Shown: positions 21,524 through 57,085 of the stretch, one piece after another
Layout of the letters: each line of letters begins with the position of its first letter
Numbering within the stretch: the first letter of the stretch is position 1
NCBI GenBank assembly: GCA_023140215.1
Contig: JAGLMC010000048.1
Coordinates: 379-64,378 of the forward strand
Length of the DNA stretch: 64,000 nt
From: Alphaproteobacteria bacterium
GTDB taxonomy: Bacteria > Pseudomonadota > Alphaproteobacteria > Micavibrionales > Micavibrionaceae
Direction of reading: 5' to 3'
Translations under genes and position numbers: made by a program
Notes under the pieces: model-generated
The model's input: only the letters and a program-made list of their open reading frames with translations
Told to the model about the DNA's origin: nothing
Databases searched by the model: none

Positions 21524-22228
21524 TCAATGTGAGCTGTTTGCTTTAATTTTGCGGTTGTATTCAGTGATTTTTTTGTATGGAGAGAATCCATTATTTAGAA
21601 TATGAGAAATGCTTTCCATATTAGAAGATGCGCTTAAAAGATTATATGCAGATTGGCTGTGATAGTGTGCATATTCAATATCCATAAGTTCGTTAATAGC
21701 GGTTTTTGAAAGGTTTTTCATGATGCCGTGAATAGAAAATGATGTAGCTTTAATCTCATTACTATTTTGAGTTCTTAGTTTGGCGATATAAAAGTTCTTT
21801 GAGTCTCTTGTTTTGATTTCTTTAATTTTGATGAGATTGATATTAAAATCGTTACAAAAACCATAAGAAAAATGTTTAAATTTCTTGTGTTCAAGATTAA
21901 AGCTGTAGCGAGATAGACGCACTGAATTTTCCAAAATTGCAATAATTCGACTTCCGTTTAATATTTCCGAGAGGTCTATTGTTTTGTTATTGCTTAACAT
22001 TAAAGCATTGATTTGTGTGGCTTTTTCTAAATTTTCTATATAAGAAACTGGATATCTTGATACATGCCGATCAAGATATATATGTAAAAGAGGGCTGTTT
22101 TTTCGCGCATCTGAAACTTCAAGGATATGATCGTCAGGATTGTATTTATAATTAAATCCAATTCCCCACGCAATAAAAGAGCCTTGGGAGCAAAACTCCT
22201 TATACTTTAACTTTAACGCAAATGTCAT
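21524..22228 (-). CDS. Orphan hypothetical protein
   Basis: 234 aa with no signal peptide and no motif I recognise. It is AT-rich (17 G+C in 21781..21840 by hand count), has a weak RBS, and is flanked by long AT-rich spacers. Confidence 0.5.
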   Translation of the reverse strand: MTFALKLKYKEFCSQGSFIAWGIGFNYKYNPDDHILEVSDARKNSPLLHIYLDRHVSRYPVSYIENLEKATQINALMLSNNKTIDLSEILNGSRIIAILENSVRLSRYSFNLEHKKFKHFSYGFCNDFNINLIKIKEIKTRDSKNFYIAKLRTQNSNEIKATSFSIHGIMKNLSKTAINELMDIEYAHYHSQSAYNLLSASSNMESISHILNNGFSPYKKITEYNRKIKANSSH

Positions 22229-22414
22229 ATTTTCTATGCTCGTTTTTATTATTATTGACGGTATGTTAGCATAAACTTATATGTGTGTGCTAGATTTTTC
22301 CATAAATCTTTGATATTAAAAGATAATCTAAACTATTGTTTTTTTAGGTATTTTCTTGTCATACGATTCTTTCTATATTTTGGGTTTTATTGACATAAAA
22401 ATACAAAAATAATG

Positions 22415-24490: not shown

Positions 24491-25810
24491 CTAAGAAGCC
24501 GAGATTTTTTTCTCTCTATTATCTTCTTTTTCTTTGTCATCTTTTTTCTTTTTTGTAGAAGTTTTTTTCTTTTTATTAGCAAAAATATATTCAGGAGTTT
24601 TTTGTTCTTTAATAGAATCCTCATTGATAATAACTTCTTTTATATCTTCCATATCAGGCAATTCAAACATTGTATCAAGGAGAAGAATTTCTAAAATTGA
24701 TCTTAGTCCACGAGCGCCTGTTTTTCTTTTAATTGCTTTTTTTGCTATTGCTTTCAAAGCATCATCAGTGAATTTAAGCTCTGCACCTTCCATATCAAAA
24801 AGTTTTGCATATTGTTTGGTTAAGGCATTTTTAGGTTCAGTTAGTATTGTAACAAGAGCATCTTCATCAAGATCTTCCAGTGTAGCAAGAACAGGTAGAC
24901 GACCAACAAATTCAGGAATCAAACCGTACTTTAATAAATCTTCAGGTTCTAGATCTTGAAAGATTTCACCGATGCCGCGAGCATCATCATCTTTAACATC
25001 AGCACCGAATCCAATAGATGTTCCACGACCGCGTGCTGCAATAATTTTATCAAGTCCGGCAAAAGCACCGCCACATATAAATAAGATACCGCTAGTGTCG
25101 ACCTGAAGAAATTCCTGTTGAGGATGCTTGCGTCCACCTTGAGGTGGAACGCTTGCTATTGTGCCTTCCATTAATTTTAATAATGCTTGTTGCACACCTT
25201 CACCGGAGACATCACGAGTAATAGAAGGGTTGTCCGATTTACGGGATATCTTGTCAATTTCATCAATATAAACGATTCCTTTTTGTGCGCGTTCAACATT
25301 ATAATCAGAAGATTGCAGCAATTTCAGAACGATATTTTCAACATCTTCGCCAACATAACCGGCCTCTGTTAATGTTGTTGCATCAGCCATAGTAAAAGGA
25401 ACATCAAGAATACGGGCAAGAGTTTCAGCTAGAAGCGTTTTACCGCATCCTGTAGGGCCTACAAGTAAAATATTTGATTTTGCCAGCTCTATCTCGTCGC
25501 CGTTATTGCTGTGTTCAAGGCGTTTGTAATGGTTGTGTACTGCCACAGATAAAACACGTTTGGCCGTTTCCTGACCAATCACATAATCATCAAGAAAGTT
25601 TTTAATTTCAGATGGCGAGGGAACACTTTCACCTTTACTAACAATCTGTGTTTTGTCTTCTTCACGGATAATATCCATGCAAAGTTCCACACATTCATTG
25701 CAGATAAATACATTTGGCCCTGCAATTAGCTTTCTAACCTCATGCTGGCTTTTACCGCAAAATGAACAATAAAGAGTATTTTTCGAATCACTAGAACTTG
25801 TTTTACTCAT
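24491..25810 (-). CDS. clpX: ATP-dependent Clp protease ATP-binding subunit ClpX
   Basis: 439 aa. The zinc finger is CSFCGK...[12 protein letters not shown] and IVYIDEIDK are present. An extra Lys-rich tail reads [23 protein letters not shown]. Confidence 0.97.
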
Positions 25811-26023
25811 AAAGGTTTCCCGTCCTTTGGTTTATTCATCTTTAAGCATTACGGTATTTTAATACGCCTTTGTTTAATCTAGACAAGAGGTTGATTGCTA
25901 CGCAAGTCTTTAAATCAATGAAATCATTTTTTCCCTTAGATTATTTATAAAGTTCAAAGTTTCCACTTTGTGTTTATTGTATTATATCTAAGATGTAGAT
26001 TTAATTAACTGATTATAGAAAAT

Positions 26024-26443
26024 ATGTTGCAGGATAATAATTTAAGCTCAGACTTATTAAAATTAATTGATGATTTTTCATTCTTCGATGACTGGGAAGA
26101 ACGATATCGTTACCTTATTGATATCGGGCGCAAGCTTTCAAAAATGGATGAGTCTCTCAAGACAGATGAAACATTAGTGCGGGGATGCACATCACGTGTA
26201 TGGGTGCATGTAGATATACAAGATAATGTTTTACATTTTGTAGCTGATAGCGATGCTCATATAGTGCGTGGATTAATTGCTTTGCTTGTCCGAATTTATG
26301 AAGGAAAAATGCTTGAAGAAATAGCTGAAATTGATATTCATGCTGTTTTTGAAGAGATTGGACTTAATCAGAATCTCAGTCCTAACCGCCGTAATGGATT
26401 TTTTGCAATGGTAGAGCGGATTAGATCATTCGCTGATTTCTAG
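26024..26443 (+). CDS. sufE: SufE-family sulfur acceptor protein
   Basis: 139 aa. WEERYRYLIDIG, VRGCTSRVWV (active-site Cys) and NRRNGF are present. Confidence 0.85.
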   Translation: MLQDNNLSSDLLKLIDDFSFFDDWEERYRYLIDIGRKLSKMDESLKTDETLVRGCTSRVWVHVDIQDNVLHFVADSDAHIVRGLIALLVRIYEGKMLEEIAEIDIHAVFEEIGLNQNLSPNRRNGFFAMVERIRSFADF

Positions 26444-27067
26444 TTCTTTATTTTCAGTTTCGTCTTGCTTGAGTTTTGTCGTTGATTCTTGATCTTCCAC
26501 ATCTTTTATATCTTCCACATTTTCCACATAATGCACGCTTTTTAGAATATCACTAAAAAGTTTATCAGCGTTATTATTAGCCTCACCAATCAGCTCTGCT
26601 TCAACAGAAAGCGCAGATTGTTCTCCAATCCATAGCTGGGCAATATAGATAGTTGATGTACGACCAACCTTTCCTTCACCAACCAGTCCGGCTTGTTTAT
26701 AGTTTTCTTCTTCACGGTAAGATGTGTTGAAGGTTTTGACAACCGAGCGATCTGTCATAGCGCGTAAGGTAGCTTGCATAACATCACCGTTATAGTTTTT
26801 TTTCACTTCTTCACCAATTGGATTGCAAATCACGCGAAAATTCACAGTAGAAGCCATTTCAAAAACTTCTGTATAGCTAATCTGGTCATAACATTTCTTA
26901 TCACCGTCCTGATCGCACCGACGTGTTTTATATGGTTCGGTAGGAAATGTGACTGAAAATTCACAAAATTCAGGCTTGTATGTTGAAGGCTCATCCGCAT
27001 GTGAATTAGTTGCCATAATAAGAGTAGAAAGTATTAAAGTTAGAAACAACAAATGTATTTTATTCAT
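26426..27067 (-). CDS. Secreted hypothetical protein with four Cys and an acidic C-terminal tail
   Basis: The start is set at MNKIHLLFLTLILSTLIMATNSHA, a signal peptide. This start overlaps the hisS stop by 8 nt. The 3' end overlaps the sufE 3' end by 18 nt. I recognise no family. Confidence 0.55.
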   Translation of the reverse strand: MNKIHLLFLTLILSTLIMATNSHADEPSTYKPEFCEFSVTFPTEPYKTRRCDQDGDKKCYDQISYTEVFEMASTVNFRVICNPIGEEVKKNYNGDVMQATLRAMTDRSVVKTFNTSYREEENYKQAGLVGEGKVGRTSTIYIAQLWIGEQSALSVEAELIGEANNNADKLFSDILKSVHYVENVEDIKDVEDQESTTKLKQDETENKELEISE

Positions 27068-28448
27068 CTTTATTCCAATCATTTGTAGTAGTTGGTATTT
27101 GTTTGCCGGTTTCCATGTTTTTAACCTCATGTGGATTACCATTTTCAAATGGAGGAAACCATACATAAGGAATGCCTTTTTTTTCAGCGTAAGCAAGTTG
27201 GCGTTTTAACTTTCCACCGTGAAATACTTCAACATTAAATCCTCTACGGCGAAGGATAAGCCCTGTTTCATTAGCAACGCTTCGTTGTTCTTCAGAAGGC
27301 ATAACCACCAGAATATCAGCAGGAGAGCTTCCCTTTACAGGAAGTTTACCTTCTCGCCGGATTCTATCAAATAATCGGGAAAAGCCAATAGAAATACCAA
27401 CTCCGGGAAGCCTTTTGTTTATATAGTTACTTGTTAGATCGTTGTAACGTCCACCGGAACAGATCGAGCCATAGCCGGGATCTTCGGTGAAGACTGTCTC
27501 GTATACTGTGCCTGTATAATAATCCAGTCCGCGCACAATAGATAAATCAGCTACAACCGCCCCTTCGGGCAGGTGGGAGAGTTGTTCGAGTACAAATTTT
27601 AAATCTCTAAGTCCGTCAAAAACGTATCCGTGACCATCTATACCTTCAATTTTGTAAATAAAGTCTTGAATCTTACTAGGATCTGATGTTTTAAGACTAG
27701 CCATATCTATAAGCATTTTTGCCTGACCGGGGGTTAAATCAAGCTTGCCTAATGCGTAATATGTTTCATCATTGCCAATTTTTTCAAGTTTATCCATGAT
27801 ACGCATAACCTCAGGTATCTTGCTAATACCAAGCCCTAGGCAATACCCCATCAAAATTTTCCGATTACTAATTCGTATCTGTAATTTTTCATTTTCCATA
27901 CCGGGAAGAGAACTTAAAATCTCCCAGATAATTGCGGGCATTTCCGCATCAAAATGCAAAGGCAGGGAATCAATATTAATCACATCAATATCACATTGAT
28001 AAAATTCCCGGAATCGTCCTGCCTGTGGACGTTCACCGCGCCAGACTCGTTGTATCTGATAGCGTTTAAACGGAAAGATCAAATCATTAAAATGCTGGGC
28101 AACATATCGAGCCAGTGGAACTGTCTGGTCAAAATGTAACGCCAGACGAGCTTCTTTTTTTGTGATCCCTGTCAGGCCTTCGGCCTTCCCCGCCTCTTCA
28201 TCACCTTCTTCTTTATGTAATCGTTCCAGCACATAAACTTCTTTATCAACATCCGATCCATTATCGCCTTTAATATTGATAACATTCAGTTCTTCTACGC
28301 TCGGCGTTTCAATAGAGCAAAATCCATAACTTTCAAATATTTTTCGGATATGGTCAAACCATTGTTGCTCAATACGGCGTACTTCAGGAAGCCATTCTGG
28401 AAATCCGCTTATAGGCCGTGGTTTATATATTTTCTTTTTATCGGTCAT
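27060..28448 (-). CDS. hisS: Histidine--tRNA ligase (alphaproteobacterial-type)
   Basis: 462 aa. It shows class II aaRS motifs of the HisRS type (GFPEWLP, RVWRGERPQAGRFREFYQCDIDV, GGRYDNL-like GGRYNDL) and a C-terminal anticodon-binding domain. Confidence 0.8.
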   Translation of the reverse strand: MTDKKKIYKPRPISGFPEWLPEVRRIEQQWFDHIRKIFESYGFCSIETPSVEELNVINIKGDNGSDVDKEVYVLERLHKEEGDEEAGKAEGLTGITKKEARLALHFDQTVPLARYVAQHFNDLIFPFKRYQIQRVWRGERPQAGRFREFYQCDIDVINIDSLPLHFDAEMPAIIWEILSSLPGMENEKLQIRISNRKILMGYCLGLGISKIPEVMRIMDKLEKIGNDETYYALGKLDLTPGQAKMLIDMASLKTSDPSKIQDFIYKIEGIDGHGYVFDGLRDLKFVLEQLSHLPEGAVVADLSIVRGLDYYTGTVYETVFTEDPGYGSICSGGRYNDLTSNYINKRLPGVGISIGFSRLFDRIRREGKLPVKGSSPADILVVMPSEEQRSVANETGLILRRRGFNVEVFHGGKLKRQLAYAEKKGIPYVWFPPFENGNPHEVKNMETGKQIPTTTNDWNKDE

Positions 28449-28615: not shown

Positions 28616-30448
28616 TTAATGCTTTTCTTCAAATAAATCATCAAGCTGCCCGACAAGCGCTTCAGCAAGTTCATCAACATCAGTAATGGTAATAGCTCGT
28701 TTATAATATTGAGTTACATCATGTCCGATTCCGATAGCTGTTATCTCGATCATGGATTTTTTTTCAATCCACTGAATCATGTTACGCAAATCCAGTTCGA
28801 GAATATTAGATGGATTAACGGATAGAGTTGAATCATCAACCGGCGCACCATCAGAAATAACCATTAGAATTTTACGTTCTTCAGGACGTTTGCTTAGGCG
28901 GTTATGCGCCCAAACAAGTGCTTCACCATCAATATTTTCCTTTAGCAATCCTTCCTTGAGCATCAGTGCAATATTTTTTCGTGTACGGCGCATTGGAGCA
29001 TCGGCAGCTTTATAGATAATATGACGAACATCATTCAAACGTCCCGGATTTGAATGGCGACCGTTTTCTATCCAAAGATCACGGGACTTTCCACCTTTCC
29101 ATCCGCGTGTTGTAAAGCCTAAAATTTCTACTTTCACGCCACACCGTTCCAGAGTTCTGGCAACAATGTCAGTTGTCATTGCAGCGATAGCAATAGGCCG
29201 TCCACGCATTGATCCGGAATTATCAATCAGCAGCGTTACAACAGTATCGCGGAAGTCAGTTTCTTTTTCCTGTTTAAATGTTATGGGTACATTAGGATTA
29301 GCAATCACGCGGGCAAAGCGCGAATTATCAAGAATGCCGTCTTCAAGATCAAACTCCCAGCTTCTACGCTGTTGCGCCATGACCTTGCGTTGCAAACGGT
29401 TTGCAAGTTTTGCAATAATTGTTTGATGTTGGTAAAGCTGTTTATCCAATGCTAAACGTAGCCTATTAAGCTCTTCAGGCTCGGCCAGATTTTCAGCCTC
29501 GATTTCTTCATCAAATGCAGTTGTATAAACAGTGTAATAACCATCTATACCATGCTCATAGCCTTCAGGGCGATTAACTCTAGCATTTCCCGACATTTCC
29601 ATATTTGGTTGATCCGTTGTATCCTCAGGTGAGTTGTCCTGACCATCTTCAGCATCATCTAAGTCTTGCTCTCCTTCTTGTTCATTGAGTATTTCCATGC
29701 CTGATTGTTCTTGCTCAGAGCTATCTTGATTGTCTTGCTCATCGCTTTGCTCAGAGTCTTTATCATCTTTTGCCTGTCTTTCTTGCTCATCAGATATGCT
29801 TTCACCAACATCCATATCAAGCGCGGTTATAAGCTTGCGTGTTATATTAGCGTAAGATTTCTGATCGTGAAGCAGTGGTTTAAGATCATCAAAGCCAAAT
29901 GTTTGCAGATGTTTATCTATCCATGGTTTCCATAGCTCTATTAGCTTGGCGGATGATGGAGGAGGCTTTTCTTCTGTAAGAGCTAAACGACATAGTATAT
30001 GTAGCGCATCACCGAGCTGAACTTGTTCACGGTTTGTAATATTTTGATATCCCGATCTGCGGCATTTTTCTTCCAGCACTGCATTAAGGTTACTACCGAT
30101 ACCGCTCATTTCTTTAGAGCCTAGAGCTTCACAGCGGGCTTGTTCCAGAGATGTAAAAGCTTGCGATGCTTCCAAATTTCGCGGGCAGTTTTGTAAATGC
30201 AGTTTTTGATTGTGGTATGCAAGGTGAAGAGCCTGTACATCCGCACATCCGCGTATAAGCTGAACAGATTTTGCATTCATGTCATGATCTGGCAGAGGAA
30301 GCCGTAGCGTAGTTTCGGGAGATATTCTGCCAATAGGCGGCTCTCCGGATGAAAAATTAATATCAAGCTCCTGCTTGCCGGAAATTGTGCGCAATACGCC
30401 GGCCGTAGAGTTCTTGAATGTTTCTATGTTGTTTTGAATATTTGACAT
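28616..30448 (-). CDS. cobT: CobT-like vWA-domain protein (annotated as a cobaltochelatase subunit in databases)
   Basis: 610 aa. There is a central acidic low-complexity region, and the C-terminal vWA domain carries the MIDAS motif LLIDNSGSM. Confidence 0.85.
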
Positions 30449-30493
30449 ACCTAGAAACTATCCTACCATTTAAAGGTAGGCTATAGCTTTTTT

Positions 30494-30549
30494 ATTGACA
30501 TAATTATTATTTTTTCGTATTGTCTTTTTACTTTTAGGTTCAATGAAAG
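30494..30549 (+). repeat. Left copy of the direct repeat bracketing the cobT/cobS-interrupting cassette
   Basis: ATTGACATAATTATTATTTT[ttcgtattgtcttttta]CTTTTAGGTTCAATGAAAG. The blocks outside the brackets match 31899..31938 at 38 of 39 positions. Confidence 0.85.
30495..30523 (+). promoter_or_regulatory. Candidate sigma70-type promoter for the cassette
   Basis: TTGACA (30495..30500), a 17-nt spacer, then TATTGT (30518..30523), ~44 nt upstream of the ATG at 30567. It is a pattern only. Confidence 0.35.
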
Positions 30550-30566
30550 AATTGTGAGAGAAGAAA

Positions 30567-31118
30567 ATGGCACCAAAGCTTAGAGTAATTGCTAATGAAC
30601 ATTACAAGGATCCAAATACAGATTCAGTTTCATATCGAGATTTATTTCGACTTCAAGCTCTAGCCAAATGCGGTAGAGTTCCCACAGATGACAATACAGA
30701 TGTTAATAGGATAAGCGCTGTGTCAGAACAGTCAGCTAGTGTAATAGCTTTAGAAAGCATTCAATTTGTCCGAGATTTAGTTGTAAGAACGTCCTCAGAT
30801 TTAAAAAGTCTTCAAAAAAATATAGATTATCTAGAAGAATTAGAACTTTTTATTCACGAAAGTATCCTAAATTTAGAAAAGGATATATGGACAATATCTA
30901 TAGAGGATGTATTAGAGGTATTTAAAAGCTTAAAGAATCGTTCTTTCGATGGTCAAAAGCAAGTTTTATCAGAGTATCTAGATATTTTAAAGGATACAGA
31001 GGATAAATTGAAAAAGGTGGGTACATTACAACAATCGACAACTGTCGTGACACAGTCACCCCAGAGCAACATATTTAATACGGGATCGTTATGGCCACGT
31101 TTCAGTTATACTCCGTGA
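30567..31118 (+). CDS. Orphan hypothetical protein (cassette gene 1)
   Basis: 183 aa. The RBS-like GAGAGAAG sits upstream. There is no signal peptide, the composition looks helical/coiled, and I recognise no family. It is AT-rich (15 G+C in 30781..30840). Confidence 0.55.
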   Translation: MAPKLRVIANEHYKDPNTDSVSYRDLFRLQALAKCGRVPTDDNTDVNRISAVSEQSASVIALESIQFVRDLVVRTSSDLKSLQKNIDYLEELELFIHESILNLEKDIWTISIEDVLEVFKSLKNRSFDGQKQVLSEYLDILKDTEDKLKKVGTLQQSTTVVTQSPQSNIFNTGSLWPRFSYTP

Positions 31119-31129
31119 GAGAATAAAAA

Positions 31130-31888
31130 ATGAAATTGAATGGAGTTTTTGGAAAAGTTGCTGGCATTGCTAGTGTGGCAGTTCTTACATTAGGATTAAC
31201 TGCATGCGCTACTTTAGATGTTAGTGATAAGCCAATCATTGATGATAAGCAAACAGAGGCAAGCGCTACGTCAAAACCTGTGAAAATGCCGTCAAAGAAA
31301 GAATTGCTTTTAGAACATATTGGAATACTTCGTAATAATGTAGAAAATCGCTTAAATATTAAATATGGTTTAAGTAAGCAAGAGATTCAATTTGCTTTAT
31401 CTATAATGGAGGGTTTAAGTGAGCAAAAGATTCAATATGCTTTATTTGTAATGGAGGGTTTAAGTAAGCAAGAGATTCAATTTGCTTTATCTTTGATAGA
31501 AGATTTAAGTGTGCAAGAGATTCAAGAGAGTTTAAATGATCAAGAGGTTTTAAGAGAATTATGGAGTCAAGAGGGTTTAAGTGAGCAAGAGATTCAACAT
31601 GCTTTATTTGTAATGGAGGGTTTAAGTAAGCAAGAGATTCAATATATTTTATCCATAATAGAACCTTTAATAACAGAACCAAGAGAGATAATAACAAAAC
31701 TAAAAGAAATAGTAAAATTAGATACTTTAATAGGTAGAGTTATCAAACTTTCTGAAAATTCATTGAAAGGAGGGGTTGTAATCACTGAGATAATAAAAGA
31801 ACAAATTGCCGAAAGAAAAAAAGATAATGAAAAGCTACCTATAATAGTACCTGAAAATATCTTTAAGCCATCACCGTTTCGGATTTAA
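31130..31888 (+). CDS. Lipoprotein with six 15-aa tandem repeats (cassette gene 2)
   Basis: 252 aa. The signal peptide has the lipobox L-T-A-C (TLGLTACAT). The repeats follow GLS[KE]Q[EK]IQ[FYH]AL[SF][ILV][MI]E. It starts 11 nt after gene 1 and has a similar GTGAGAGAA RBS region. Confidence 0.7.
   Translation: MKLNGVFGKVAGIASVAVLTLGLTACATLDVSDKPIIDDKQTEASATSKPVKMPSKKELLLEHIGILRNNVENRLNIKYGLSKQEIQFALSIMEGLSEQKIQYALFVMEGLSKQEIQFALSLIEDLSVQEIQESLNDQEVLRELWSQEGLSEQEIQHALFVMEGLSKQEIQYILSIIEPLITEPREIITKLKEIVKLDTLIGRVIKLSENSLKGGVVITEIIKEQIAERKKDNEKLPIIVPENIFKPSPFRI
31367..31663 (+). repeat. 45-bp in-frame tandem repeat array (six units, one 27-bp interruption)
   Basis: The units are 31367-31411, 31412-31456, 31457-31501, 31502-31546 (diverged), then 31574-31618 and 31619-31663. 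The consensus is ggtttaagtaagcaagagattcaat(t/a)tgctttat...atggag. Confidence 0.9.
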
Positions 31889-31898
31889 TAGTTTTTCC

Positions 31899-31938
31899 AT
31901 TGACATAATTGTTATTTTGCTTTTAGGTTCAATGAAAG
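31899..31938 (+). repeat. Right copy of the direct repeat bracketing the cassette
   Basis: ATTGACATAATTGTTATTTT[g]CTTTTAGGTTCAATGAAAG. It ends 6 nt before the cobS stop codon (31945..31947). Confidence 0.85.
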
Positions 31939-31944
31939 TACCGT

Positions 31945-32994
31945 CTACACCACAGCCACATTCCGAATAGCACTTTCCGGAAGTTCAATATCAAAGCAAC
32001 GCTGATAATATTCAGCAATTAACGGACGTTCGGTTTCATCACATTTATTCAAGAATGAAAGCTGAAATGCAATTTCCTTATCTTTAAAGATAAGCATATT
32101 CTCAATCCATGTTATGACTGTACGCGGAGACATAAGCGTTGATAAATCACCATTAATAAAGCCTTTACGGGTTAAATCTGCCATACGCACCATGCCATCA
32201 ATATCACTTCGGCCTTTCTCATTATCCAGCTCTGGAAACTTGGCTAGCATAATTCCCATTTCATCATCATGCGGAAGATAGTTAAGTGTAGCGACAATGT
32301 TCCACCTGTCCATTTGTCCCTGATTGATTTGTTGCGTGCCGTGGTAAAGACCTGTTGTATCGCCTAGTCCTACCGTATTGGCTGTTGAAAAAAGCCTGAA
32401 CGCCGGATGTGGGCGAATAATGCGATTTTGATCGAGAAGGGTAAGCGCACCTTCGGCCTCTAAAATACGCTGTATTACAAACATTACGTCCGGCCGTCCG
32501 GCATCATATTCATCAAACACAAGAGCAATCGGGTTTTGTATTGACCATGGTAGCAGACCATCAACCCAGCGTGTGATTTGTTTATTCTCTTGCAGAACAA
32601 TAGTGTCTTTACCGATTAAATCAACGCGGCTAACGTGTGAATCCAGATTGATTCTAACGCACGGCCAGTTAAGGCGAGCGGCGACTTGTTCAATATGTGT
32701 TGATTTACCTGTACCGTGATATCCTTGAATCATCACACGTCGGTTATGACTAAAGCCGGCCAAAATCGCCAGAGTTGTATCATGGTCGAATTGATATGCT
32801 TTGTCTGTTTTCGGAACATTGGCATTTTCTTCACTGAATGCGGGAACTTCCCAGTCACTATCCAGACCGAATGTTTCACGTACACTGAGCCTTATATCCG
32901 GAATAGAAGTGTATTTTCCTTCTTTGGCTTTAATATTGGTGATGTCAAAAGACATACCGGCAGCTTCTTTTTCTTTATTTAGTTCATCGGGCAT
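31945..32994 (-). CDS. cobS: CobS-like MoxR-type AAA+ ATPase
   Basis: GYHGTGKSTHIEQVAARLNWPCVRINLDSHVSRVDLIGKD (Walker A) and LVFDEYDAGRPDV (Walker B) are present. The start is set at ATG 32994 (MPDELNK...), 4 nt after the J-protein stop. The track start at 33024 is a TTG inside the upstream gene. Confidence 0.9.
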   Translation of the reverse strand: MPDELNKEKEAAGMSFDITNIKAKEGKYTSIPDIRLSVRETFGLDSDWEVPAFSEENANVPKTDKAYQFDHDTTLAILAGFSHNRRVMIQGYHGTGKSTHIEQVAARLNWPCVRINLDSHVSRVDLIGKDTIVLQENKQITRWVDGLLPWSIQNPIALVFDEYDAGRPDVMFVIQRILEAEGALTLLDQNRIIRPHPAFRLFSTANTVGLGDTTGLYHGTQQINQGQMDRWNIVATLNYLPHDDEMGIMLAKFPELDNEKGRSDIDGMVRMADLTRKGFINGDLSTLMSPRTVITWIENMLIFKDKEIAFQLSFLNKCDETERPLIAEYYQRCFDIELPESAIRNVAVV

Positions 32995-33610: not shown

Positions 33611-33898
33611 TGATTATAAAATTAAACTTTTAAGGTAATTATAGCGACTTGCATTTTATGTGAATATGGTAATTGTTTTTTTATTTAAAGCTTCACTAAA
33701 CTACGGCAAGCGGGAATATATTAAACTAATATGTCCCCAAAGCAAGTGTTTCCAATTTAAGTTAATATATATGAGTATAATAAAAACAACTCTTTACACC
33801 CATAGGTTGTGTTGTTATATATATTCTTAAGTGTAGTAGAGGACGATTGTAACCAAAGGTTGTTTTTGTGTTTTGCTATTTTAATGTGGGGGATAAAT

Positions 33899-35460: not shown

Positions 35461-36453
35461 TTATCCGTCTGTCCCTGTTTTTGACAATGGATGTTTTTCT
35501 TTTACCGTGTTTTTCAAATCTTCTCCAATGATATGCGTATAGATTTGTGTAGTTGCAATATCGGCATGGCCAAGCATTTTTTGAACTGAGCGCAAGTCTG
35601 CACCGTGGCGCAAAAGATGTGTAGCAAACGCATGACGAATAATATGTGGACTAACGCGATCCTCTTCAACACTAGCCGCACGTGCCAGATCTTTCAAAAG
35701 TTGCGCAAAACGCTGGCGAGTTAAGTGACCGCTATCGGATGTACGTGACGGGAATAACCATTTTCCCTGACGTTCTTGTCCATCAGTGCCAATAAATTGC
35801 TTGCGAATGTCTGTATAATTTTTAAGAGCTTTCTGTGCAGGATCAGATAGAGGAACCATACGCTCACGACCAGCCTTGCCTGTAATCATTAGGAACTGGT
35901 TGTTTTCATCAATAGCAGATGTTGGCAAGCCAACTAGCTCAGATACACGAAGTCCGGTTGCATAAAGAACTTCAATTAGACAGACAAGACGAATACTTTC
36001 AGGTGTTCTGCTTTGACCGGCGGTTTTAATCAATTCATCAATTTCAGCTTCACTTAGTGTTTTGGGAAGCGTACGACCTTGCTTAGGGCTTTTAATTGTA
36101 CTTGTAGGATCATCATCTCTGATATCTTCGGAAACTAAAAATCTATAGAATTGACGCAATGCAGATAGACGTCGTGCAATAGTACGAACAGCAACTTTAC
36201 TGGTGTTTGCTCCTTTGCTATGTGTTTTTTCACTAAGATTTTTGAGGTAGTCTTTTAAATCCTCAGTTGTAGCCTTATCAATTTCTATATTTCTTTCTTT
36301 ACGTAAATAAAGGCTTACATCAGCTAGATCACGCCAATAGGCATGGCGGGTATTTAAAGCTGCACCGCGCTCTGTTGTGAGCATATCTAGGAATGTGTCT
36401 ATTAGCGGATGTAGATCCGGTTTTGGTAGTGCTGGGCGACCTGGACGAGCCAT
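35461..36453 (-). CDS. xerD: Site-specific tyrosine recombinase XerD
   Basis: 330 aa. The N-terminal SAM-like domain and the catalytic region (ATGLRVSEL, HIIRHAFATHLL, LGHADIATTQIYTH) are present. Synteny with accA argues for the housekeeping XerD. Confidence 0.85.
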   Translation of the reverse strand: MARPGRPALPKPDLHPLIDTFLDMLTTERGAALNTRHAYWRDLADVSLYLRKERNIEIDKATTEDLKDYLKNLSEKTHSKGANTSKVAVRTIARRLSALRQFYRFLVSEDIRDDDPTSTIKSPKQGRTLPKTLSEAEIDELIKTAGQSRTPESIRLVCLIEVLYATGLRVSELVGLPTSAIDENNQFLMITGKAGRERMVPLSDPAQKALKNYTDIRKQFIGTDGQERQGKWLFPSRTSDSGHLTRQRFAQLLKDLARAASVEEDRVSPHIIRHAFATHLLRHGADLRSVQKMLGHADIATTQIYTHIIGEDLKNTVKEKHPLSKTGTDG

Positions 36454-36475: not shown

Positions 36476-38245
36476 CTAAAATTTTCCAAGACTTGCACTT
36501 ATCGCTAGAGTTCTGGAAACATCTGTTAAGCCTACATTTTCAGTGTTTTGCAAAACATCCCTAAATAAAATCGGATATATATTTTGTAAATCCTGATTAC
36601 AAAGCAAAATAATACTTAGTAAAATCGTTTCCCCAATTGCACCTTTACGGCTAGATTCTATAGAACGATCCCACACAACACCTGACTGCATTACATAATT
36701 GTCTTTAAAAGTCAAGTAAAAGTCTTTTTCATAAACTTTTTTATGACTGTATGCTTTATGTTTCCCGTTGTCAAATTTTATAAGAATTTCTTGTAAAAGT
36801 AATGCTTGAGCAGGGTTTTGTTTTTGCAATGCATCAAATACTGAATCAAAATTTTCTTTTATATTTTTTGGGGATGGTTTGGTTATGTGACTTGCAACCA
36901 TAAGCTTTGCATATTTTTCCGTATTGTTCGGATTAAGCTTAATTCGTTTATATGCATTTATCCAATTTCTATGGATATTTTTGCCGGCACGGTGAAGAAT
37001 TAAATATACAGATAAAATTTCATCCAGAGAGGCGTTCTCAGTTTTTATTTGTTGAATAATGCTCGCATAGGGAATAAGTGCTGTATATCCAAACTTGTTA
37101 GCCAGAGGTAAAGCTTTGCGCAGGAGTTGCCATTGTTCTTCATGGTCAATAGTTCTTTTTGCTTCATTATATAGGTAAGCCAATTTTCTCCAGTCTTCTT
37201 TTGGCATATTGTCTTTTATAGTATCATTCGTACTGCCATTGCTGTTTTTAGGTGTTGTGGTTTTAGTATAGAGCATTTCAAGTTCATCTGCTGCGATCAG
37301 GCCAAGTTCTACACCACGAATGCTTAATATTATTTTTTCTTGAGCAGAAAGTGTGTCTAATTGCAAAAGAGGTTGTATATGTGCTGCCGGTATTTTTCTA
37401 AGAGCATCTGCTTTAAGATTTTTAATTTCCAGTCTGTCTTCGGCTGCTAAGATAGCACGTTCTAAAACATCTAATCGTTCATAGGCTTTTTTTGTGTATG
37501 TAAAACGGTAGTCTTTGTTTGTTGATAGTTTATTAAGAATTTTGCTGTTTGAAATATATTTTTTGGAAGTTTCTTTTAAAGAACTTTTAGAATCCTTATT
37601 TAACAGGCTGAAATCACAATAAGCAGATAAATCTGTCCAAAAAGATATGTCGGAAAATCTTTTTCCAACAATATTTGTTTCAAGGCATGCCAGAGATTTT
37701 TCACCTGTATATAGCATGGCGAGAACTCCGGCGCGAGCAAGTCGTTCGTGGTATGCTTCGTCTTCAAGGATGCTGTAAAGCTCAAAAGCTTGTTTGTATG
37801 CTCCACCTTCTATGAGTTTTTCAAGGCGCAATGTTAGTAAGTCCCGTCCATTTTCCGGATCAATATCATTTTCAATGAGTTTTGTGTTTGCAGATGTTAA
37901 AAGAATACTCAAAATCATTTTGTTAACTTCAGGCGTTTTAGAAGTTGCAGGCATATTTTCCAGTAAAGCTATAATTGAAGATCGTTTTGAGTTTTTCCAA
38001 ATGTCCTTACCAAAACTTCCTTTACTTAATCTATTGTATAGACCGATACCTTCAATATTTTCAAAGGCTACATCTAAAGTTGTATTAGGTGAAATTGAAT
38101 TAGACGGTTCATCAGATTTAGTTTCAGCATATGCAAAAGAAACCGTTATAACCGTAAAGGTTAAAATCAGAAAAATGGCTAAAAAGTAAATGGATGATCT
38201 ATTAATCACGGAGATGCTCATATGGTATTTCTTTTGAAACTTCAT
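36476..38245 (-). CDS. Large secreted or membrane-anchored hypothetical protein
   Basis: About 589 aa from MKFQKKYHMSISVINRSSIYFLAIFLILTFTVITVSFAYA (signal/anchor). An alternative start is 38221. The composition looks helical and I recognise no family. Confidence 0.6.
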   Translation of the reverse strand: MKFQKKYHMSISVINRSSIYFLAIFLILTFTVITVSFAYAETKSDEPSNSISPNTTLDVAFENIEGIGLYNRLSKGSFGKDIWKNSKRSSIIALLENMPATSKTPEVNKMILSILLTSANTKLIENDIDPENGRDLLTLRLEKLIEGGAYKQAFELYSILEDEAYHERLARAGVLAMLYTGEKSLACLETNIVGKRFSDISFWTDLSAYCDFSLLNKDSKSSLKETSKKYISNSKILNKLSTNKDYRFTYTKKAYERLDVLERAILAAEDRLEIKNLKADALRKIPAAHIQPLLQLDTLSAQEKIILSIRGVELGLIAADELEMLYTKTTTPKNSNGSTNDTIKDNMPKEDWRKLAYLYNEAKRTIDHEEQWQLLRKALPLANKFGYTALIPYASIIQQIKTENASLDEILSVYLILHRAGKNIHRNWINAYKRIKLNPNNTEKYAKLMVASHITKPSPKNIKENFDSVFDALQKQNPAQALLLQEILIKFDNGKHKAYSHKKVYEKDFYLTFKDNYVMQSGVVWDRSIESSRKGAIGETILLSIILLCNQDLQNIYPILFRDVLQNTENVGLTDVSRTLAISASLGKF

Positions 38246-48764: not shown

Positions 48765-48872
48765 AATTATTTGATTGTTTTTGTGTTTTTGTACAAGGTA
48801 TGAATAATTCATTGTAGAAACCCTGTGCAGATAATGACATAATTATGTGTAGAAATAAGCGGAAACGGCTAC

Positions 48873-56354: not shown

Positions 56355-57085
56355 TTTTTCTTAACTTCTCGTGGTTTTTGTTTATCCAGAATATATTGCA
56401 AGGCTTGTGCTTTTTTATAAGCATTTGTTATCAATTTGGCAGATGTAAATGCTTCTTCTAATTTATTACGATCCGCAAGGATTTTTGTAATAATGGAATA
56501 AGCTTTGTTTCTAAAGGCTGCGCTTTTGATAAAAGCTATGCTTTTCATAGCGGCCTTTGCATTTTCCCGTTCAGCTTGTATTTCCGCAGTTTCACCATAT
56601 GCTTTGTTACGTAAGGAATCGTTGTTCATATCGGCTGCTGTTTTCCATGCACCCTCATCATCACCGGCAAAAGCTTGTGACATAGCAATGTATGTAAGTG
56701 CAATCGCATAAGATGGCTTATGCTCAATTTTTTCAGCCATAGCACGTAGTTTTGTAAAAATATCTGTATATTCTTCAGAAGAGAGATGGATATCAGTAAC
56801 GGCCATGCCAATCCCGCGAATCGTCATTGCTTTGGTATCAGGTGTTTTTATTTTATCAATTAATGCAATGGCAGCATCAGTTTTTCCTTCAAAAGCCAGT
56901 GTTTTTGCGATTTCTCTGTAGGTTTGATCCCGCCAGCGTTCATTTTCAATTTGTTCAGTTGTGTTTTGTAGTATAGCGATAACGCAGGTTCTATCTTTAA
57001 GCTGGCAATCCTTTGCAAAAGCTGGGGATATCGCTATAAAAGTAATGAAGCACAGAAATAAAATCAGGTTTTTGTATTGTTGCAT
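56351..57085 (-). CDS. Secreted helical-repeat (TPR-like) hypothetical protein
   Basis: 244 aa. The signal peptide is LILFLCFITFIAISPAFA. The composition is Ala/Lys-rich and helical. It overlaps the ftsE start by 4 nt. Confidence 0.6.
   Translation of the reverse strand: MQQYKNLILFLCFITFIAISPAFAKDCQLKDRTCVIAILQNTTEQIENERWRDQTYREIAKTLAFEGKTDAAIALIDKIKTPDTKAMTIRGIGMAVTDIHLSSEEYTDIFTKLRAMAEKIEHKPSYAIALTYIAMSQAFAGDDEGAWKTAADMNNDSLRNKAYGETAEIQAERENAKAAMKSIAFIKSAAFRNKAYSIITKILADRNKLEEAFTSAKLITNAYKKAQALQYILDKQKPREVKKK

What the first reader, a model, noticed from the sequence alone, without database searches (positions are those of the whole stretch)
30449..31944. AT-rich two-gene cassette, bracketed by a ~40-nt direct repeat, inserted antisense between cobT and cobS
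**Seen in sequence**
- Two co-oriented plus-strand ORFs lie between the cobT start (30448) and the cobS stop (31945), both on the minus strand.
- Gene 1 (30567..31118) encodes 183 aa with no signal peptide.
- Gene 2 (31130..31888) encodes a 252-aa lipoprotein with lipobox LTAC.
- The pair is bracketed by a direct repeat at 30494..30549 and 31899..31938. The sequence is ATTGACATAATT[A/G]TTATTTT ... CTTTTAGGTTCAATGAAAG.
- The two copies show 1 mismatch in 39 aligned positions and one 16-nt indel.
- Only the left copy has a good TTGACA-17-TATTGT promoter in front of gene 1, and its -10 lies inside the indel. The right copy abuts the cobS stop and has no downstream plus-strand gene.
- Hand-counted composition is 15 G+C in 30781..30840, against 30 G+C in cobT 29041..29100.
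- Both genes share a GTGAGAGAA ribosome-binding region.

**Established knowledge**
- cobS and cobT homologues are normally adjacent and co-oriented in alphaproteobacteria.

**Inference**
- The ancestral cobS-cobT spacer was duplicated when a foreign ~1.4-kb cassette inserted, leaving att-like or long target duplications.
- No integrase or transposase is present in the window, so the mechanism and the function of the two proteins are unknown.
- A 14-nt match to the repeat's 5' end (TTTTATTGACATAA) also occurs at 22385..22398, at the edge of the other AT-rich orphan gene.
- TGACATAATTAT recurs at 48835. The motif may therefore be a recurrent promoter or boundary element rather than a unique att site.
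Basis: partly seen in the sequence, partly recalled or inferred. Interest (0 to 1): 0.7.

Follow-up and report, generated by a model that had tools for sequence, protein, structure and literature searches.

The report
Orphan two-gene insert splitting cobS–cobT
A 1.5-kb piece of DNA with two genes seen nowhere else, one a lipoprotein built from short helical repeats, has been inserted backwards between two normally abutting genes (cobS and cobT) of an uncultured cold-seep alphaproteobacterium; it is a real but fairly ordinary lineage-specific insertion whose origin and function remain unknown.

Summary
Two plus-strand ORFs (183 aa, and a 252-aa lipoprotein with lipobox LTAC) lie between minus-strand cobT and cobS. 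An imperfect direct repeat brackets them (67 nt left, 51 nt right, one 16-nt indel). Only the left copy has TTGACA-17-TATTGT.

Relatives confirm a derived insertion. In the nearest relatives the gene order around cobS is the same. cobS and cobT are 0-3 nt apart in four lineages, and 34, 153 and 162 nt apart in three others.

- **Composition:** it is not clearly foreign, because GC3 (0.24 and 0.21) is in the native range.
- **Mobility genes:** the cassette has none. The nearby XerD-like gene is conserved next to empty sites.
- **Repeat:** no third copy exists in about 83 kb of this genome, in IMG/VR or in JGI metagenomes. The short "recurrent motif" matches are at chance level.
- **Duplicated-spacer idea:** it fits poorly with relatives whose spacer is 0-3 nt. 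The repeat coincides with the operon's promoter and leader, so it more likely came with the insert or arose by partial duplication.

Both proteins are true orphans: no homologue among 5.8 billion proteins and no family or fold match. This junction takes unrelated insertions in many alphaproteobacteria. Interest is low to moderate.

The parts
28616..30448 (-). cobT (610 aa), the downstream partner of cobS. Here it is cut off from cobS by the insert.
   Evidence: TIGR01651 E 6e-212 (705.6 bits, below the 759 cut-off); Pfam CobT and CobT_C pass their cut-offs. It is followed by hisS, as in relatives.
30449..30482 (.). 34-nt left flank holding a 6-bp hairpin (CCTACC-N7-GGTAGG, 30462-30480) immediately upstream of the cobT start. 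It has no counterpart in relatives with 0-3-nt spacers.
   Evidence: The minus-strand fold of 30430-30560 has z = -1.9, driven mainly by this hairpin.
30483..30549 (+). Left copy of the direct repeat (67 nt). It holds -35 TTGACA (30495-30500), a 17-nt spacer, -10 TATTGT (30518-30523) and about the first 20 nt of the predicted g1 leader. An internal 11-nt imperfect duplication (30503-30513 and 30519-30529) bounds the 16-nt indel.
   Evidence: plus direct reading of the sequence.
30567..31118 (+). g1: 183-aa orphan protein with no signal peptide. It is predicted helical over residues ~54-154 and is preceded by GTGAGAGAA (30554-30562).
   Evidence: Only self-hits in 5.8 billion proteins and in a phmmer search of 1.84 billion representatives, apart from one repetitive hit that is likely spurious. 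AF2 pLDDT 50. No Pfam, NCBIfam, PADLOC, PHROG, PDB or Foldseek match.
31130..31888 (+). g2: 252-aa orphan lipoprotein. The signal peptide and lipobox LTAC give Cys26 (31205-31207). It starts 11 nt after g1 and is preceded by GTGAGAGAA (31115-31123).
31367..31670 (+). In-frame 45-nt tandem array inside g2. It contains 6-7 copies of a 15-residue unit, GLSxQEIQxALxxxE. Each unit is predicted as one ~11-residue helix.
   Evidence: (family D1).
31888..31938 (+). Right copy of the direct repeat (51 nt). It starts at the last base of the g2 stop codon and ends 6 nt before the cobS stop codon. It has TTGACA but no -10 at 16-18 nt.
31945..32994 (-). cobS (349 aa from the ATG used by gene callers; the ORF extends to 33024). 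Its C-terminus is intact and the same length as in relatives.
   Evidence: TIGR01650 E 2e-166 (553.1 bits, just below the 558.55 cut-off); Pfam CobS_N and AAA_5 pass. Also.
35461..36453 (-). XerD-like tyrosine recombinase. It is a housekeeping gene and is not part of the cassette.
   Evidence: NF001399 at 347.6 bits passes its cut-off, and TIGR02225 XerD gives E 3.7e-97. It occupies the same position next to accA in relatives that lack the cassette.

Best explanation
The region 30449-31944 is a lineage-specific insertion of about 1.5 kb. It landed exactly in the junction of the cobS-cobT gene pair of an uncultured cold-seep alphaproteobacterium and points the opposite way.

**What it carries.** It holds a compact two-gene operon of orphan genes. 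g1 is a soluble, mostly helical 183-aa protein. g2 follows 11 nt later and is a 252-aa lipoprotein whose central part is an in-frame array of 15-residue helical repeats.

**How it is probably expressed.** The operon is most likely transcribed from the sigma-70-type promoter in the left repeat copy. g2 is then exported, lipidated at Cys26 and anchored in the envelope. What the two proteins do there is not known.

**What the repeat is.** The bracketing direct repeat is the operon's own promoter-plus-leader segment present twice.
- I think it came in with the inserted DNA (a slightly longer-than-unit fragment) or arose by a later partial duplication.
- I do not think it is a duplicated ancestral cobS-cobT spacer.
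- A 16-nt slippage indel bounded by an 11-nt internal repeat decides which copy has a -10 box. The right copy, which would otherwise fire into the end of cobS, is promoter-dead.

**Consequences.** The insertion separates cobT (and hisS) from cobS and sets up convergent transcription with cobS, because no plus-strand terminator follows g2.

**Shown versus inferred.** Shown: the derived insertion, the anatomy, the orphan status and the absence of mobility genes. Inferred: promoter use, lipidation, the origin of the repeat and the transcriptional consequences.
For: - **Derived insertion.** Nearest relatives keep the same surrounding gene order, with cobS-cobT spacers of 0, 2, 3 and 34 nt, or 153-162 nt. 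The window is nested among them in a CobS+CobT NJ tree. In 77 alphaproteobacterial loci the two genes are adjacent and co-oriented, with a largest spacer of about 1300 nt.
- **Recurrent insertion spot.** Unrelated genes sit in this junction elsewhere: a 136-aa ORF in Bradyrhizobium, a 232-240-aa ORF in Enterovirga and one MAG, 165-180-aa ORFs in Methylobacterium and Tardiphaga, an antisense 130-aa lipoprotein in L001, and a co-oriented unknown ORF in L127/L128. None of these ORFs was run against a domain library except the L001 one, which matched no NCBIfam model.
- **Real genes.** The longest open frame is 253 codons against a maximum of 178 in 2000 shuffles. Tandem units are multiples of 3. 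GC1>GC2>GC3. A canonical lipobox is present.
- **Operon and promoter.** The intergenic gap is 11 nt, both genes share a GAGAG-type ribosome-binding region, and TTGACA-17-TATTGT lies only in the left copy.
- **Repeat is private and two-copy.**
- **No mobile-element signature.** No tRNA, no Rfam match, no phage or plasmid similarity, and no paralogy in any of six frames to 83 kb of the same genome. The XerD-like gene is also syntenic beside empty sites.
- **Not an artefact.** The same sequence appears in independent assemblies.
Against: - No relative closer than about 86% CobS identity was found, so the pre-insertion spacer of the immediate ancestor is unknown. A spacer of about 100 nt that was duplicated on insertion cannot be excluded.
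- The NJ tree has short internal branches.
- Promoter scans in this AT-rich DNA are no better than chance overall (6 sites found against 7.5 expected), so promoter use is unproven.
- Only about 83 kb of the genome could be searched for further repeat copies.
- The perfect 19-nt block at the 3' end of the repeat, with mismatches concentrated at the 5' end, would also fit a recombination core.
- The function of both proteins is entirely inferred. AlphaFold models are of low confidence (pLDDT 37 and 50).
Confidence: 0.55

Rival explanations
1. A foreign cassette integrated into an ancestral cobS-cobT spacer of about 90-107 nt by site-specific or Campbell-type (single-crossover) recombination. The two repeat copies are attL/attR-like or long target duplications.
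For: - The copies are in direct orientation and bracket the insert exactly. A perfect 19-nt block lies at one end, with mismatches clustered at the other.
- Relatives have empty sites.
- Two relatives have spacers of 153-162 nt, so a spacer long enough could have existed.
Against: - There is no recombinase in the cassette. The only tyrosine recombinase nearby is a XerD-like gene that is also syntenic in cassette-free relatives.
- Four of the nearest lineages have 0-3-nt spacers.
- The L088 spacer is unrelated to the repeat by inspection, and a blastn of the whole cassette against the relatives' loci found nothing.
- The repeat coincides with the promoter and leader of g1, which this model does not predict.
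- No tRNA target exists.
- No copy of either repeat half with flanking similarity occurs in IMG/VR or JGI metagenomes, and neither the whole cassette (plasmids, DNA search) nor its two proteins (plasmids and phages) have a match there.
- GC3 and codon usage are native-like.
Confidence: 0.2
2. An antisense envelope-protein gene in the cobS-cobT spacer is old in this clade and evolves or turns over so fast that homology is lost. The window's cassette would then be an expanded descendant, grown by local duplication and amplification of the 45-nt repeat, rather than imported DNA.
For: - L001 has an antisense 130-aa lipoprotein ORF in its 533-nt spacer.
- L088 has an antisense 38-aa hydrophobic ORF, and the P0013 contig has a called antisense 40-aa ORF.
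- GC3 is native.
- No homologue exists anywhere.
- About 40% of g2 is a tandem array.
- The flanks are duplicated.
Against: - The window is nested among lineages with 0-3-nt spacers, so several independent losses would be needed.
- g2 versus the L001 ORF gives only E 0.14 in a two-sequence comparison, confined to the signal peptide.
- g1 and g2 are unrelated to each other.
- No source DNA for 1.5 kb is detectable in 83 kb of the genome.
- Small antisense ORFs in short spacers can be chance calls.
Confidence: 0.12
3. The two copies are a functional cis-element kept at both ends of the operon. It could be an operator for a regulator, or an insulator that shields cobS and cobT from cassette transcription.
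For: - The 3' 19 nt are identical in both copies.
- Each copy contains an internal inverted repeat, ATTGA...TCAAT, overlapping the -35.
Against: - The spacing between the inverted arms differs between the copies because of the 16-nt indel (by direct reading, roughly 30 nt in the left copy and roughly 20 nt in the right), which is unlike a dimer-binding operator.
- Folding energies are no better than shuffles for the right copy (z -0.17 and +0.34).
- There is no terminator-like feature on the plus strand.
- With only two copies and no relatives, there is no conservation evidence.
Confidence: 0.06
4. The cassette is a recombinase-less module moved by the host Xer system, a chromosomal analogue of dif modules or IMEX elements. 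The repeat would supply Xer-binding sites.
For: ATTGACATAA matches 10 of 11 positions of the reverse-complemented XerD arm of the proteobacterial dif consensus. That consensus is recalled from my own knowledge, and the comparison was done by hand. A XerD-like gene lies 3.5 kb away.
Against: - The would-be XerC arm matches only 6 of 11 positions in both copies, and the central region 3 of 6.
- TTDACATAA occurs 6 times in the window against 5.0 expected, so the half-site is not significant. It is also simply TTGACA plus TAA.
- The cobS-cobT junction is not a dif site in relatives, where the spacer is 0-3 nt.
- dif modules normally have paired sites with both arms.
Confidence: 0.03

Closest known systems
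Small genomic islets: lineage-specific gene insertions flanked by direct repeats and lacking their own integrase
   Same: - It is absent from syntenic relatives.
- It is bracketed by direct repeats of about 50 nt.
- It carries accessory, envelope-type genes of unknown function.
- It sits in an intergenic junction that takes different insertions in different lineages.
   Different: - It has no tRNA/tmRNA target, no integrase remnant and no compositional anomaly at third codon positions.
- The repeat coincides with the operon's promoter and leader rather than with a recognisable att core.
- It splits a normally abutting, probably co-transcribed gene pair, in antisense orientation.
Bacterial lipoproteins with tandem helical repeats (Lgt/LspA/Lnt substrates)
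   Same: g2 has an n-region with Lys residues, a hydrophobic core, a lipobox L-T-A-C with Ala at position +2, a disordered linker after the Cys, and then a repetitive helical body.
   Different: The 15-residue unit GLSxQEIQxALxxxE matches no Pfam, NCBIfam or PDB family above threshold. The best are sub-threshold hits to helix-turn-helix-like segments (GerE, DUF494, MCM5_C). No homologue exists in 5.8 billion proteins.
dif modules / IMEX elements and integron cassettes (recombinase supplied in trans)
   Same: It is a one-to-two-gene module without its own recombinase, bounded by short repeats, and a Xer-type recombinase is encoded nearby.
   Different: - There is no complete 28-bp dif-like site, because only one arm resembles the consensus and it does so at chance frequency.
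- No GTTRRRY/RYYYAAC attC core was seen on reading the repeat.
- There is no IntI; the integron-integrase model scores 128 bits against a cut-off of 265.
- There is no array of cassettes.
Unrelated genes found between cobS and cobT in other alphaproteobacteria
   Same: The junction is the same. ORFs of 136-391 aa of diverse sequence occupy it in Bradyrhizobium, Methylobacterium, Tardiphaga, Enterovirga and Sphingomonas loci.
   Different: Those inserts are co-oriented with cobS and cobT and are single genes. The window's insert is antisense, has two genes, is the longest seen (1496 nt against at most about 1300) and is repeat-flanked. L001, the other antisense case, has no flanking repeats.

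Membership tests
att-flanked integrative island or islet | Direct repeats at both ends of a segment that is missing in relatives | tested here: met
   The repeat copies are 67 and 51 nt. Relatives have empty sites.
att-flanked integrative island or islet | Integrase or recombinase gene inside or at the edge of the element | tested here: not met
   The insert holds only g1 and g2, and neither matches any recombinase family. The XerD-like gene 3.5 kb away is also syntenic in cassette-free relatives.
att-flanked integrative island or islet | Integration into a tRNA/tmRNA gene or another recurrent att target | tested here: not met
   There is no tRNA or tmRNA in the 64-kb window. The repeat sequence is not found with flanking similarity in IMG/VR or JGI metagenomes.
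att-flanked integrative island or islet | Composition or codon usage deviating from the host genome | tested here: inconclusive
   GC is 0.346 and 0.314 against a window mean of 0.374. GC3 is 0.24 and 0.21, within the native range of 0.18-0.36. A codon adaptation index computed against the window's other genes gives 0.628 (lowest) and 0.683 (typical).
IS element, transposon or MITE | Terminal inverted repeats, short (2-14 bp) target duplications and a transposase | tested here: not met
   The end repeats are direct, not inverted. No terminal inverted pair was found. No transposase domain is present.
Integron gene cassette | attC site with R''/R' core sites, and an IntI integrase with attI nearby | tested here: not met
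   By direct reading of the sequence (no pattern search run), the repeat has no GTTRRRY/RYYYAAC cores. The nearby recombinase scores as XerD (325 bits), not as an integron integrase (128 bits against a cut-off of 265).
Xer-dependent module (dif module / IMEX) | 28-bp dif-like site with XerC and XerD arms around a 6-nt centre, at both ends | tested here: not met
   The XerD-arm-like ATTGACATAA matches 10 of 11 positions, but the XerC arm matches 6 of 11 in both copies (hand comparison, consensus from my own knowledge). TTDACATAA occurs 6 times against 5.0 expected.
Bacterial lipoprotein (g2) | Signal peptide ending in lipobox [LVI][ASTVI][GAS]C | tested here: met
   The peptide MKLNGVFGKVAGIASVAVLTLG-LTAC gives Cys26. 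Processing itself cannot be tested here.
Sigma-70 promoter (left repeat copy) | -35 and -10 hexamers with 16-18-nt spacing, placed upstream of a gene | tested here: met
   TTGACA-17-TATTGT matches 10 of 12 positions and ends 43 nt before the g1 ATG. The right copy fails the scan. Function cannot be tested, and such matches are not enriched over shuffles in this region.
Any described protein family (g1, g2) | Significant match to a Pfam, NCBIfam, PADLOC, PHROG or PDB sequence, or a fold match | tested here: not met
   No match reaches a curated cut-off where the library has one or is convincing; the best are Pfam DUF494 at 21.8 bits (E 1.8e-4) against a cut-off of 22.6 and PADLOC DrmC at E 0.012. 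The best Foldseek E-value is 0.44, on a low-confidence model.

The most novel reading that the evidence does not exclude
The cassette is not imported DNA. It would be a case of gene birth and rapid turnover at a hypervariable junction. In this clade the cobS-cobT spacer repeatedly spawns antisense envelope-protein ORFs: 38-40 aa in two relatives, a 130-aa lipoprotein in L001, and two genes of 183 and 252 aa here. On this reading the window's genes grew in place through local duplication (the flanking repeat and the shared ribosome-binding region) and amplification of a 45-nt unit. That would make it a traceable series of de novo emergence of a lipoprotein operon.
Probability: 0.08. Interest if true: 0.6.

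Novelty: new member of a known kind. Interest (0 to 1): 0.27.

Why it matters
**What it shows.** A tightly linked gene pair that abuts in relatives can be split by an antisense accessory operon without damage to either gene. The case also adds two protein families with no detectable relatives, one of them a lipoprotein with an undescribed 15-residue helical repeat.

**What is more useful.** The observation around the finding may matter more. The cobS-cobT junction is a recurrent landing or birth site for unrelated genes across Alphaproteobacteria, and it is hypervariable in this uncultured clade. That could serve as a small natural series for studying how orphan genes arise or are acquired.

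**Limits.** No new mechanism of mobility is demonstrated. Nothing links the cassette to CobS/CobT function.

Tried and rejected
**Protein homology and structure**
- Homology searches for g1 and g2 found only the proteins themselves (word-indexed search of 5.8 billion proteins).
- A full phmmer search for g1 against 1.84 billion representatives added one hit, P0123, at E 3.6e-6. That score sums five internal repeats of a repetitive 618-aa protein at about 22-26% identity, and I treat it as spurious.
- Pfam, NCBIfam, PADLOC, PHROGs and PDB sequence searches gave nothing that reaches a curated cut-off or is convincing.
- Single-sequence AlphaFold gave pLDDT 37 and 50. Foldseek with the g1 model gave no match with E below 0.4. 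The g2 model was too poor to search.

**Links to mobile DNA or to the rest of the genome**
- tblastn of g1 and g2 against plasmids and phages, and blastn of the cassette against plasmids, found nothing.
- Rfam found nothing on the region, and ARAGORN found no tRNA.
- Six-frame comparison of the cassette with the rest of the window, about 19 kb more of the same genome, and the relatives' loci found no hidden paralogy. The one exception is a 30-nt, 87% match of the g1 start to a clpB-like gene, probably chance.

**The repeat**
- Scans for the repeat halves gave 0 and 14 hits in IMG/VR and 10 in JGI metagenomes. The JGI hits were inspected and are single matches with no flanking similarity; the 14 IMG/VR hits to the AT-rich half were not inspected, but that collection has no copy of the other half.
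- RNA folding of the repeat and leader on both strands gave no structure better than shuffles, apart from the cobT-proximal hairpin.
- Repeat-flanked insertion in L001 was rejected, because no flanking repeats were found.

**Other ideas tested**
- Population variants gave no information on selection. No SNP falls in the cassette, although 43 differences lie in the flanks and many of those are clustered like assembly noise.
- The apparent variant of g1 in L082 is an N-gap scaffolding artefact.
- The dif/Xer, integron and transposon readings were rejected on their defining features.
- Homology between g2 and the L001 antisense lipoprotein was rejected: E 0.14, signal peptide only.


Full report
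**1. The observation**

- g1 (30567-31118, 183 aa) and g2 (31130-31888, 252 aa) are co-oriented on the plus strand. They lie between the start of cobT (30448) and the stop of cobS (31945), both on the minus strand.
- cobS and cobT are strong matches to the cobaltochelatase-subunit models: TIGR01650 E 2e-166 and TIGR01651 E 6e-212, each a few bits below the curated cut-off, with the Pfam CobS_N, CobT and CobT_C domains passing theirs.
- g2 begins MKLNGVFGKVAGIASVAVLTLG-LTAC, a canonical lipoprotein signal with Cys26. g1 has no hydrophobic N-terminus.

The direct repeat is real.
- 30494-30513 versus 31899-31918 has 1 mismatch.
- 30531-30549 versus 31920-31938 has none.
- A 16-nt indel lies between these blocks.
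- Weaker similarity runs a further 11 nt 5', which makes the copies 67 nt (30483-30549) and 51 nt (31888-31938).
- Each half occurs exactly twice in the window even with three mismatches allowed. This is more than shuffles give.

Other checked details also hold.
- The promoter-like TTGACA-17-TATTGT lies only in the left copy, and its -10 is inside the indel.
- The shared GTGAGAGAA before both start codons and the hand-counted G+C values are exact.
- Read directly, the indel is bounded in the left copy by an imperfect 11-nt duplication: ATTATTATTTT at 30503-30513 and ATTGTCTTTTT at 30519-30529. This is the signature of replication slippage. It could have created the -10 in the left copy or removed it from the right copy.
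- The arrangement is not an assembly artefact. It is assembled identically in contigs from several samples of one study, by both ENA and Logan assemblies.
- One apparent variant (L082) is an N-gap with unrelated sequence, a scaffolding artefact.

**2. Where it comes from**

Exact look-ups place the window in metagenomes SAMN18200489-93. These come from the Site-F cold seep in the South China Sea (PRJNA707313; PMC9357000). NCBI holds the two proteins as hypothetical proteins of an "Alphaproteobacteria bacterium" MAG. The best species-representative genomes reach only 77-79% CobS identity and are MAGs labelled Micavibrio.

**3. Are the genes real, and what are they?**

The genes look real.
- The longest open frame in the 1496-nt segment is 253 codons. 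In 2000 shuffles the mean was 78 and the maximum 178.
- Both ORFs show GC1>GC2>GC3.
- g2 contains an in-frame 45-nt tandem array at 31367-31670. It has 6-7 units of GLSxQEIQxALxxxE, and one partial unit has a spacing of 27 nt, also a multiple of 3.

Both are orphans.
- The search of 5.8 billion proteins returned only the proteins themselves.
- A filter-only phmmer search of 1.84 billion cluster representatives with g1 added a single repetitive 618-aa protein. Its E of 3.6e-6 comes from five summed repeats at 22-26% identity, and I regard it as spurious.
- Pfam, NCBIfam, PADLOC, PHROGs and PDB sequences gave nothing that reaches a curated cut-off or is convincing.
- g1 and g2 are unrelated to each other.
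- Single-sequence AlphaFold models are all-helical but of low confidence (pLDDT 37 and 50). In the g2 model each 15-residue unit is one ~11-residue helix.
- A Foldseek search with the g1 model found nothing with E below 0.4.

Beyond [quoted passage not shown], function is not established.

**4. Is it an insertion?**

Yes. Among 77 alphaproteobacterial loci, cobS and cobT are always adjacent and co-oriented. The gap between tblastn matches is at most about 190 nt in 61 of them, and the largest is about 1300 nt.

The nearest relatives reachable (CobS 84-86% identical) keep the same neighbourhood. The order is aroK-like, a ~590-aa orphan, xerD-like, accA, an RHH gene, (bolA), a dnaJ-like gene, cobS, cobT, hisS, a ~200-aa gene, sufE and clpX. 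Their cobS-cobT junctions are as follows.

| Relative | cobS-cobT spacer | Content |
|---|---|---|
| L091-93, L097/98 | 0 nt | none |
| L095/96 | 2 nt | none |
| L089/90 | 3 nt | none |
| L094 | 34 nt | none |
| JGI contig of P0013 | 153 nt | called antisense 40-aa ORF |
| L088 | 162 nt | antisense ~38-aa hydrophobic ORF |
| L127/128 | at least 388 nt | different, co-oriented ORF |

None encodes a relative of g1 or g2. An NJ tree of concatenated CobS+CobT (867 ungapped columns) places the window inside this group, with L001 as sister. Gain in the window lineage is therefore the parsimonious reading. The internal branches are short, so this is not a robust phylogeny.

**5. Is it "foreign"?**

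The evidence is weak.
- The window averages 37.4% GC. g1 and g2 have 34.6% and 31.4%, inside the range of the window's genes (28.8-43.8%).
- Their GC3 (0.24 and 0.21) is typical of native genes.
- A codon adaptation index computed against the window's other genes gives 0.683 (typical) for g2 and 0.628 (lowest in the list) for g1; cobS scores 0.631.
- There is no similarity to plasmids or phages at protein or DNA level.
- There is no tRNA and no Rfam family.
- No paralogous or frame-shifted source was found in about 83 kb of the same genome.

**6. What is the repeat?**

It is private and has two copies.
- No third copy exists in the window or in about 19 kb of additional flanking genome.
- The second half has no exact match in IMG/VR.
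- The AT-rich first half has 14 matches in IMG/VR; these were not inspected, but the collection holds no copy of the second half.
- The second half has 10 matches in JGI metagenomes, which were inspected and show no flanking similarity.
- The short matches at 22385 and 48835 that suggested a recurrent motif are at chance level and share no flanks.

Three points bear on its origin.
- The repeat spans a T-run, the -35, the promoter spacer and about the first 20 nt of the predicted leader of g1. In other words, it is the operon's promoter-leader segment. A duplicated target has no reason to coincide with that.
- Four of the nearest lineages have practically no cobS-cobT spacer to duplicate, and the L088 spacer is unrelated to the repeat on inspection. 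If the ancestor resembled them, the whole of 30449-31944, with both copies and the 34-nt hairpin-bearing left flank, is new DNA.
- The copies differ at about 10% of positions plus the indel. Either the duplication is not recent, or the two copies were never identical.

I therefore favour repeats that came with the insert (a slightly longer-than-unit fragment of a circular or tandem donor) or that arose by partial duplication. In this view the right copy is a promoter-dead duplicate.

I also considered other readings.
- **Xer-dependent module.** ATTGACATAA resembles the XerD arm of dif, and a XerD-like gene lies 3.5 kb away. However, the other arm fails (6 of 11 positions). The half-site occurs at chance frequency (6 against 5.0 expected). 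The xerD-like gene is syntenic beside empty sites.
- **Integron and transposon.** Both fail on their defining features.

**7. Consequences (inferred)**

- In relatives cobS and cobT abut, which suggests co-transcription and possibly coupled translation.
- Here 1.5 kb of antisense-oriented DNA separates them.
- No plus-strand terminator follows g2, and no convincing minus-strand promoter precedes cobT.
- Cassette transcripts should therefore run into the 3' end of cobS. cobT-hisS must rely on read-through across the cassette or on an unrecognised promoter.
- This cannot be tested here.

**8. Context**

Unrelated genes occupy the cobS-cobT junction in several other lineages. None of these ORFs was run against a domain library except the L001 one, which matched no NCBIfam model.
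- A 136-aa ORF in Bradyrhizobium.
- A 232-240-aa ORF in Enterovirga and one MAG.
- 165-180-aa ORFs in Methylobacterium and Tardiphaga.
- A 271-aa ORF with a hydrophobic N-terminus and a 391-aa ORF in Sphingomonas.
- An antisense 130-aa lipoprotein in the Micavibrio-like MAG L001.

The window's case is therefore one more instance of a recurrent phenomenon. It is the longest seen and the only repeat-flanked one.

**9. Verdict**

The feature is real and accurately described. It is a derived, lineage-specific insertion of a two-gene orphan operon. The specific mechanistic inference (duplication of the ancestral spacer by an att-like event bringing in foreign DNA) is not demonstrated and is somewhat disfavoured. 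No new kind of system is indicated. Interest is low to moderate.

Noticed in passing
L088 7054-7215; L001 7083-7475; L127/L128 after cobS; JGI contig of P0013: The cobS-cobT junction is hypervariable in this uncultured clade. It is 0-3 nt in four lineages and 34 nt in one. Two relatives have 153-162 nt with small antisense hydrophobic ORFs. One has at least 388 nt with a different, co-oriented ORF (MILAANGSVGERSKPDY...). L001 has 533 nt with an antisense 130-aa lipoprotein.
   Followed up: partly
window 33611-33808: A bolA gene (86-92 aa) lies between the RHH_4 gene and the dnaJ-like gene in most close relatives (L088-L090, L094, L095, L098, L127). It is missing at this position in the window, where only about 200 nt of spacer remain.
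   Followed up: no
L082 5845-5998: One ENA scaffold carries a run of N followed by about 145 nt of unrelated, GC-richer sequence inside g1. This makes g1 look split into 61-aa and 165-aa ORFs. It is a scaffolding artefact, not a variant.
   Followed up: yes
window 36730-36745 and 56707-56722 (and 7 other sites): The pattern ATAA-N6-TTATG occurs 9 times against 2.0 expected (0 of 100 shuffles reach 9). It includes two palindromic CATAA-N6-TTATG sites. One lies inside the ~590-aa orphan gene next to the xerD-like gene. Both are inside coding regions, so they are probably not dif sites.
   Followed up: no
window 30566-30595 versus L125 4813-4842: The start of g1 (peptide APKLRVIAN) matches 26 of 30 nt, in frame, of a stretch of the clpB-like gene of the same genome (AQKLIEIAN). 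blastn gives E 0.001 in about 200 kb. It is probably chance.
   Followed up: partly
window 21524-22228: There is another AT-rich orphan gene (234 aa, GC 0.313, unusually low GC1 of 0.34, no Pfam or NCBIfam match) between carD-like and peptidase S66 genes. The 14-nt match to the repeat near it (22385-22398) is a chance match with no flanking similarity.
   Followed up: partly
window 36476-38245: A ~590-aa protein without any Pfam domain is conserved in the same position (between aroK-like and xerD-like genes) in all close relatives examined, at 552-601 aa. It is a clade-specific conserved unknown.
   Followed up: no
window 25568-28345, 30053-30296 and 32435-32456 versus L083: Differences between population contigs come in tight clusters of 3-8 substitutions within about 50 nt, and none fall in the cassette. 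The clustering looks like assembly or strain-mixing noise rather than evenly spread polymorphism.
   Followed up: no
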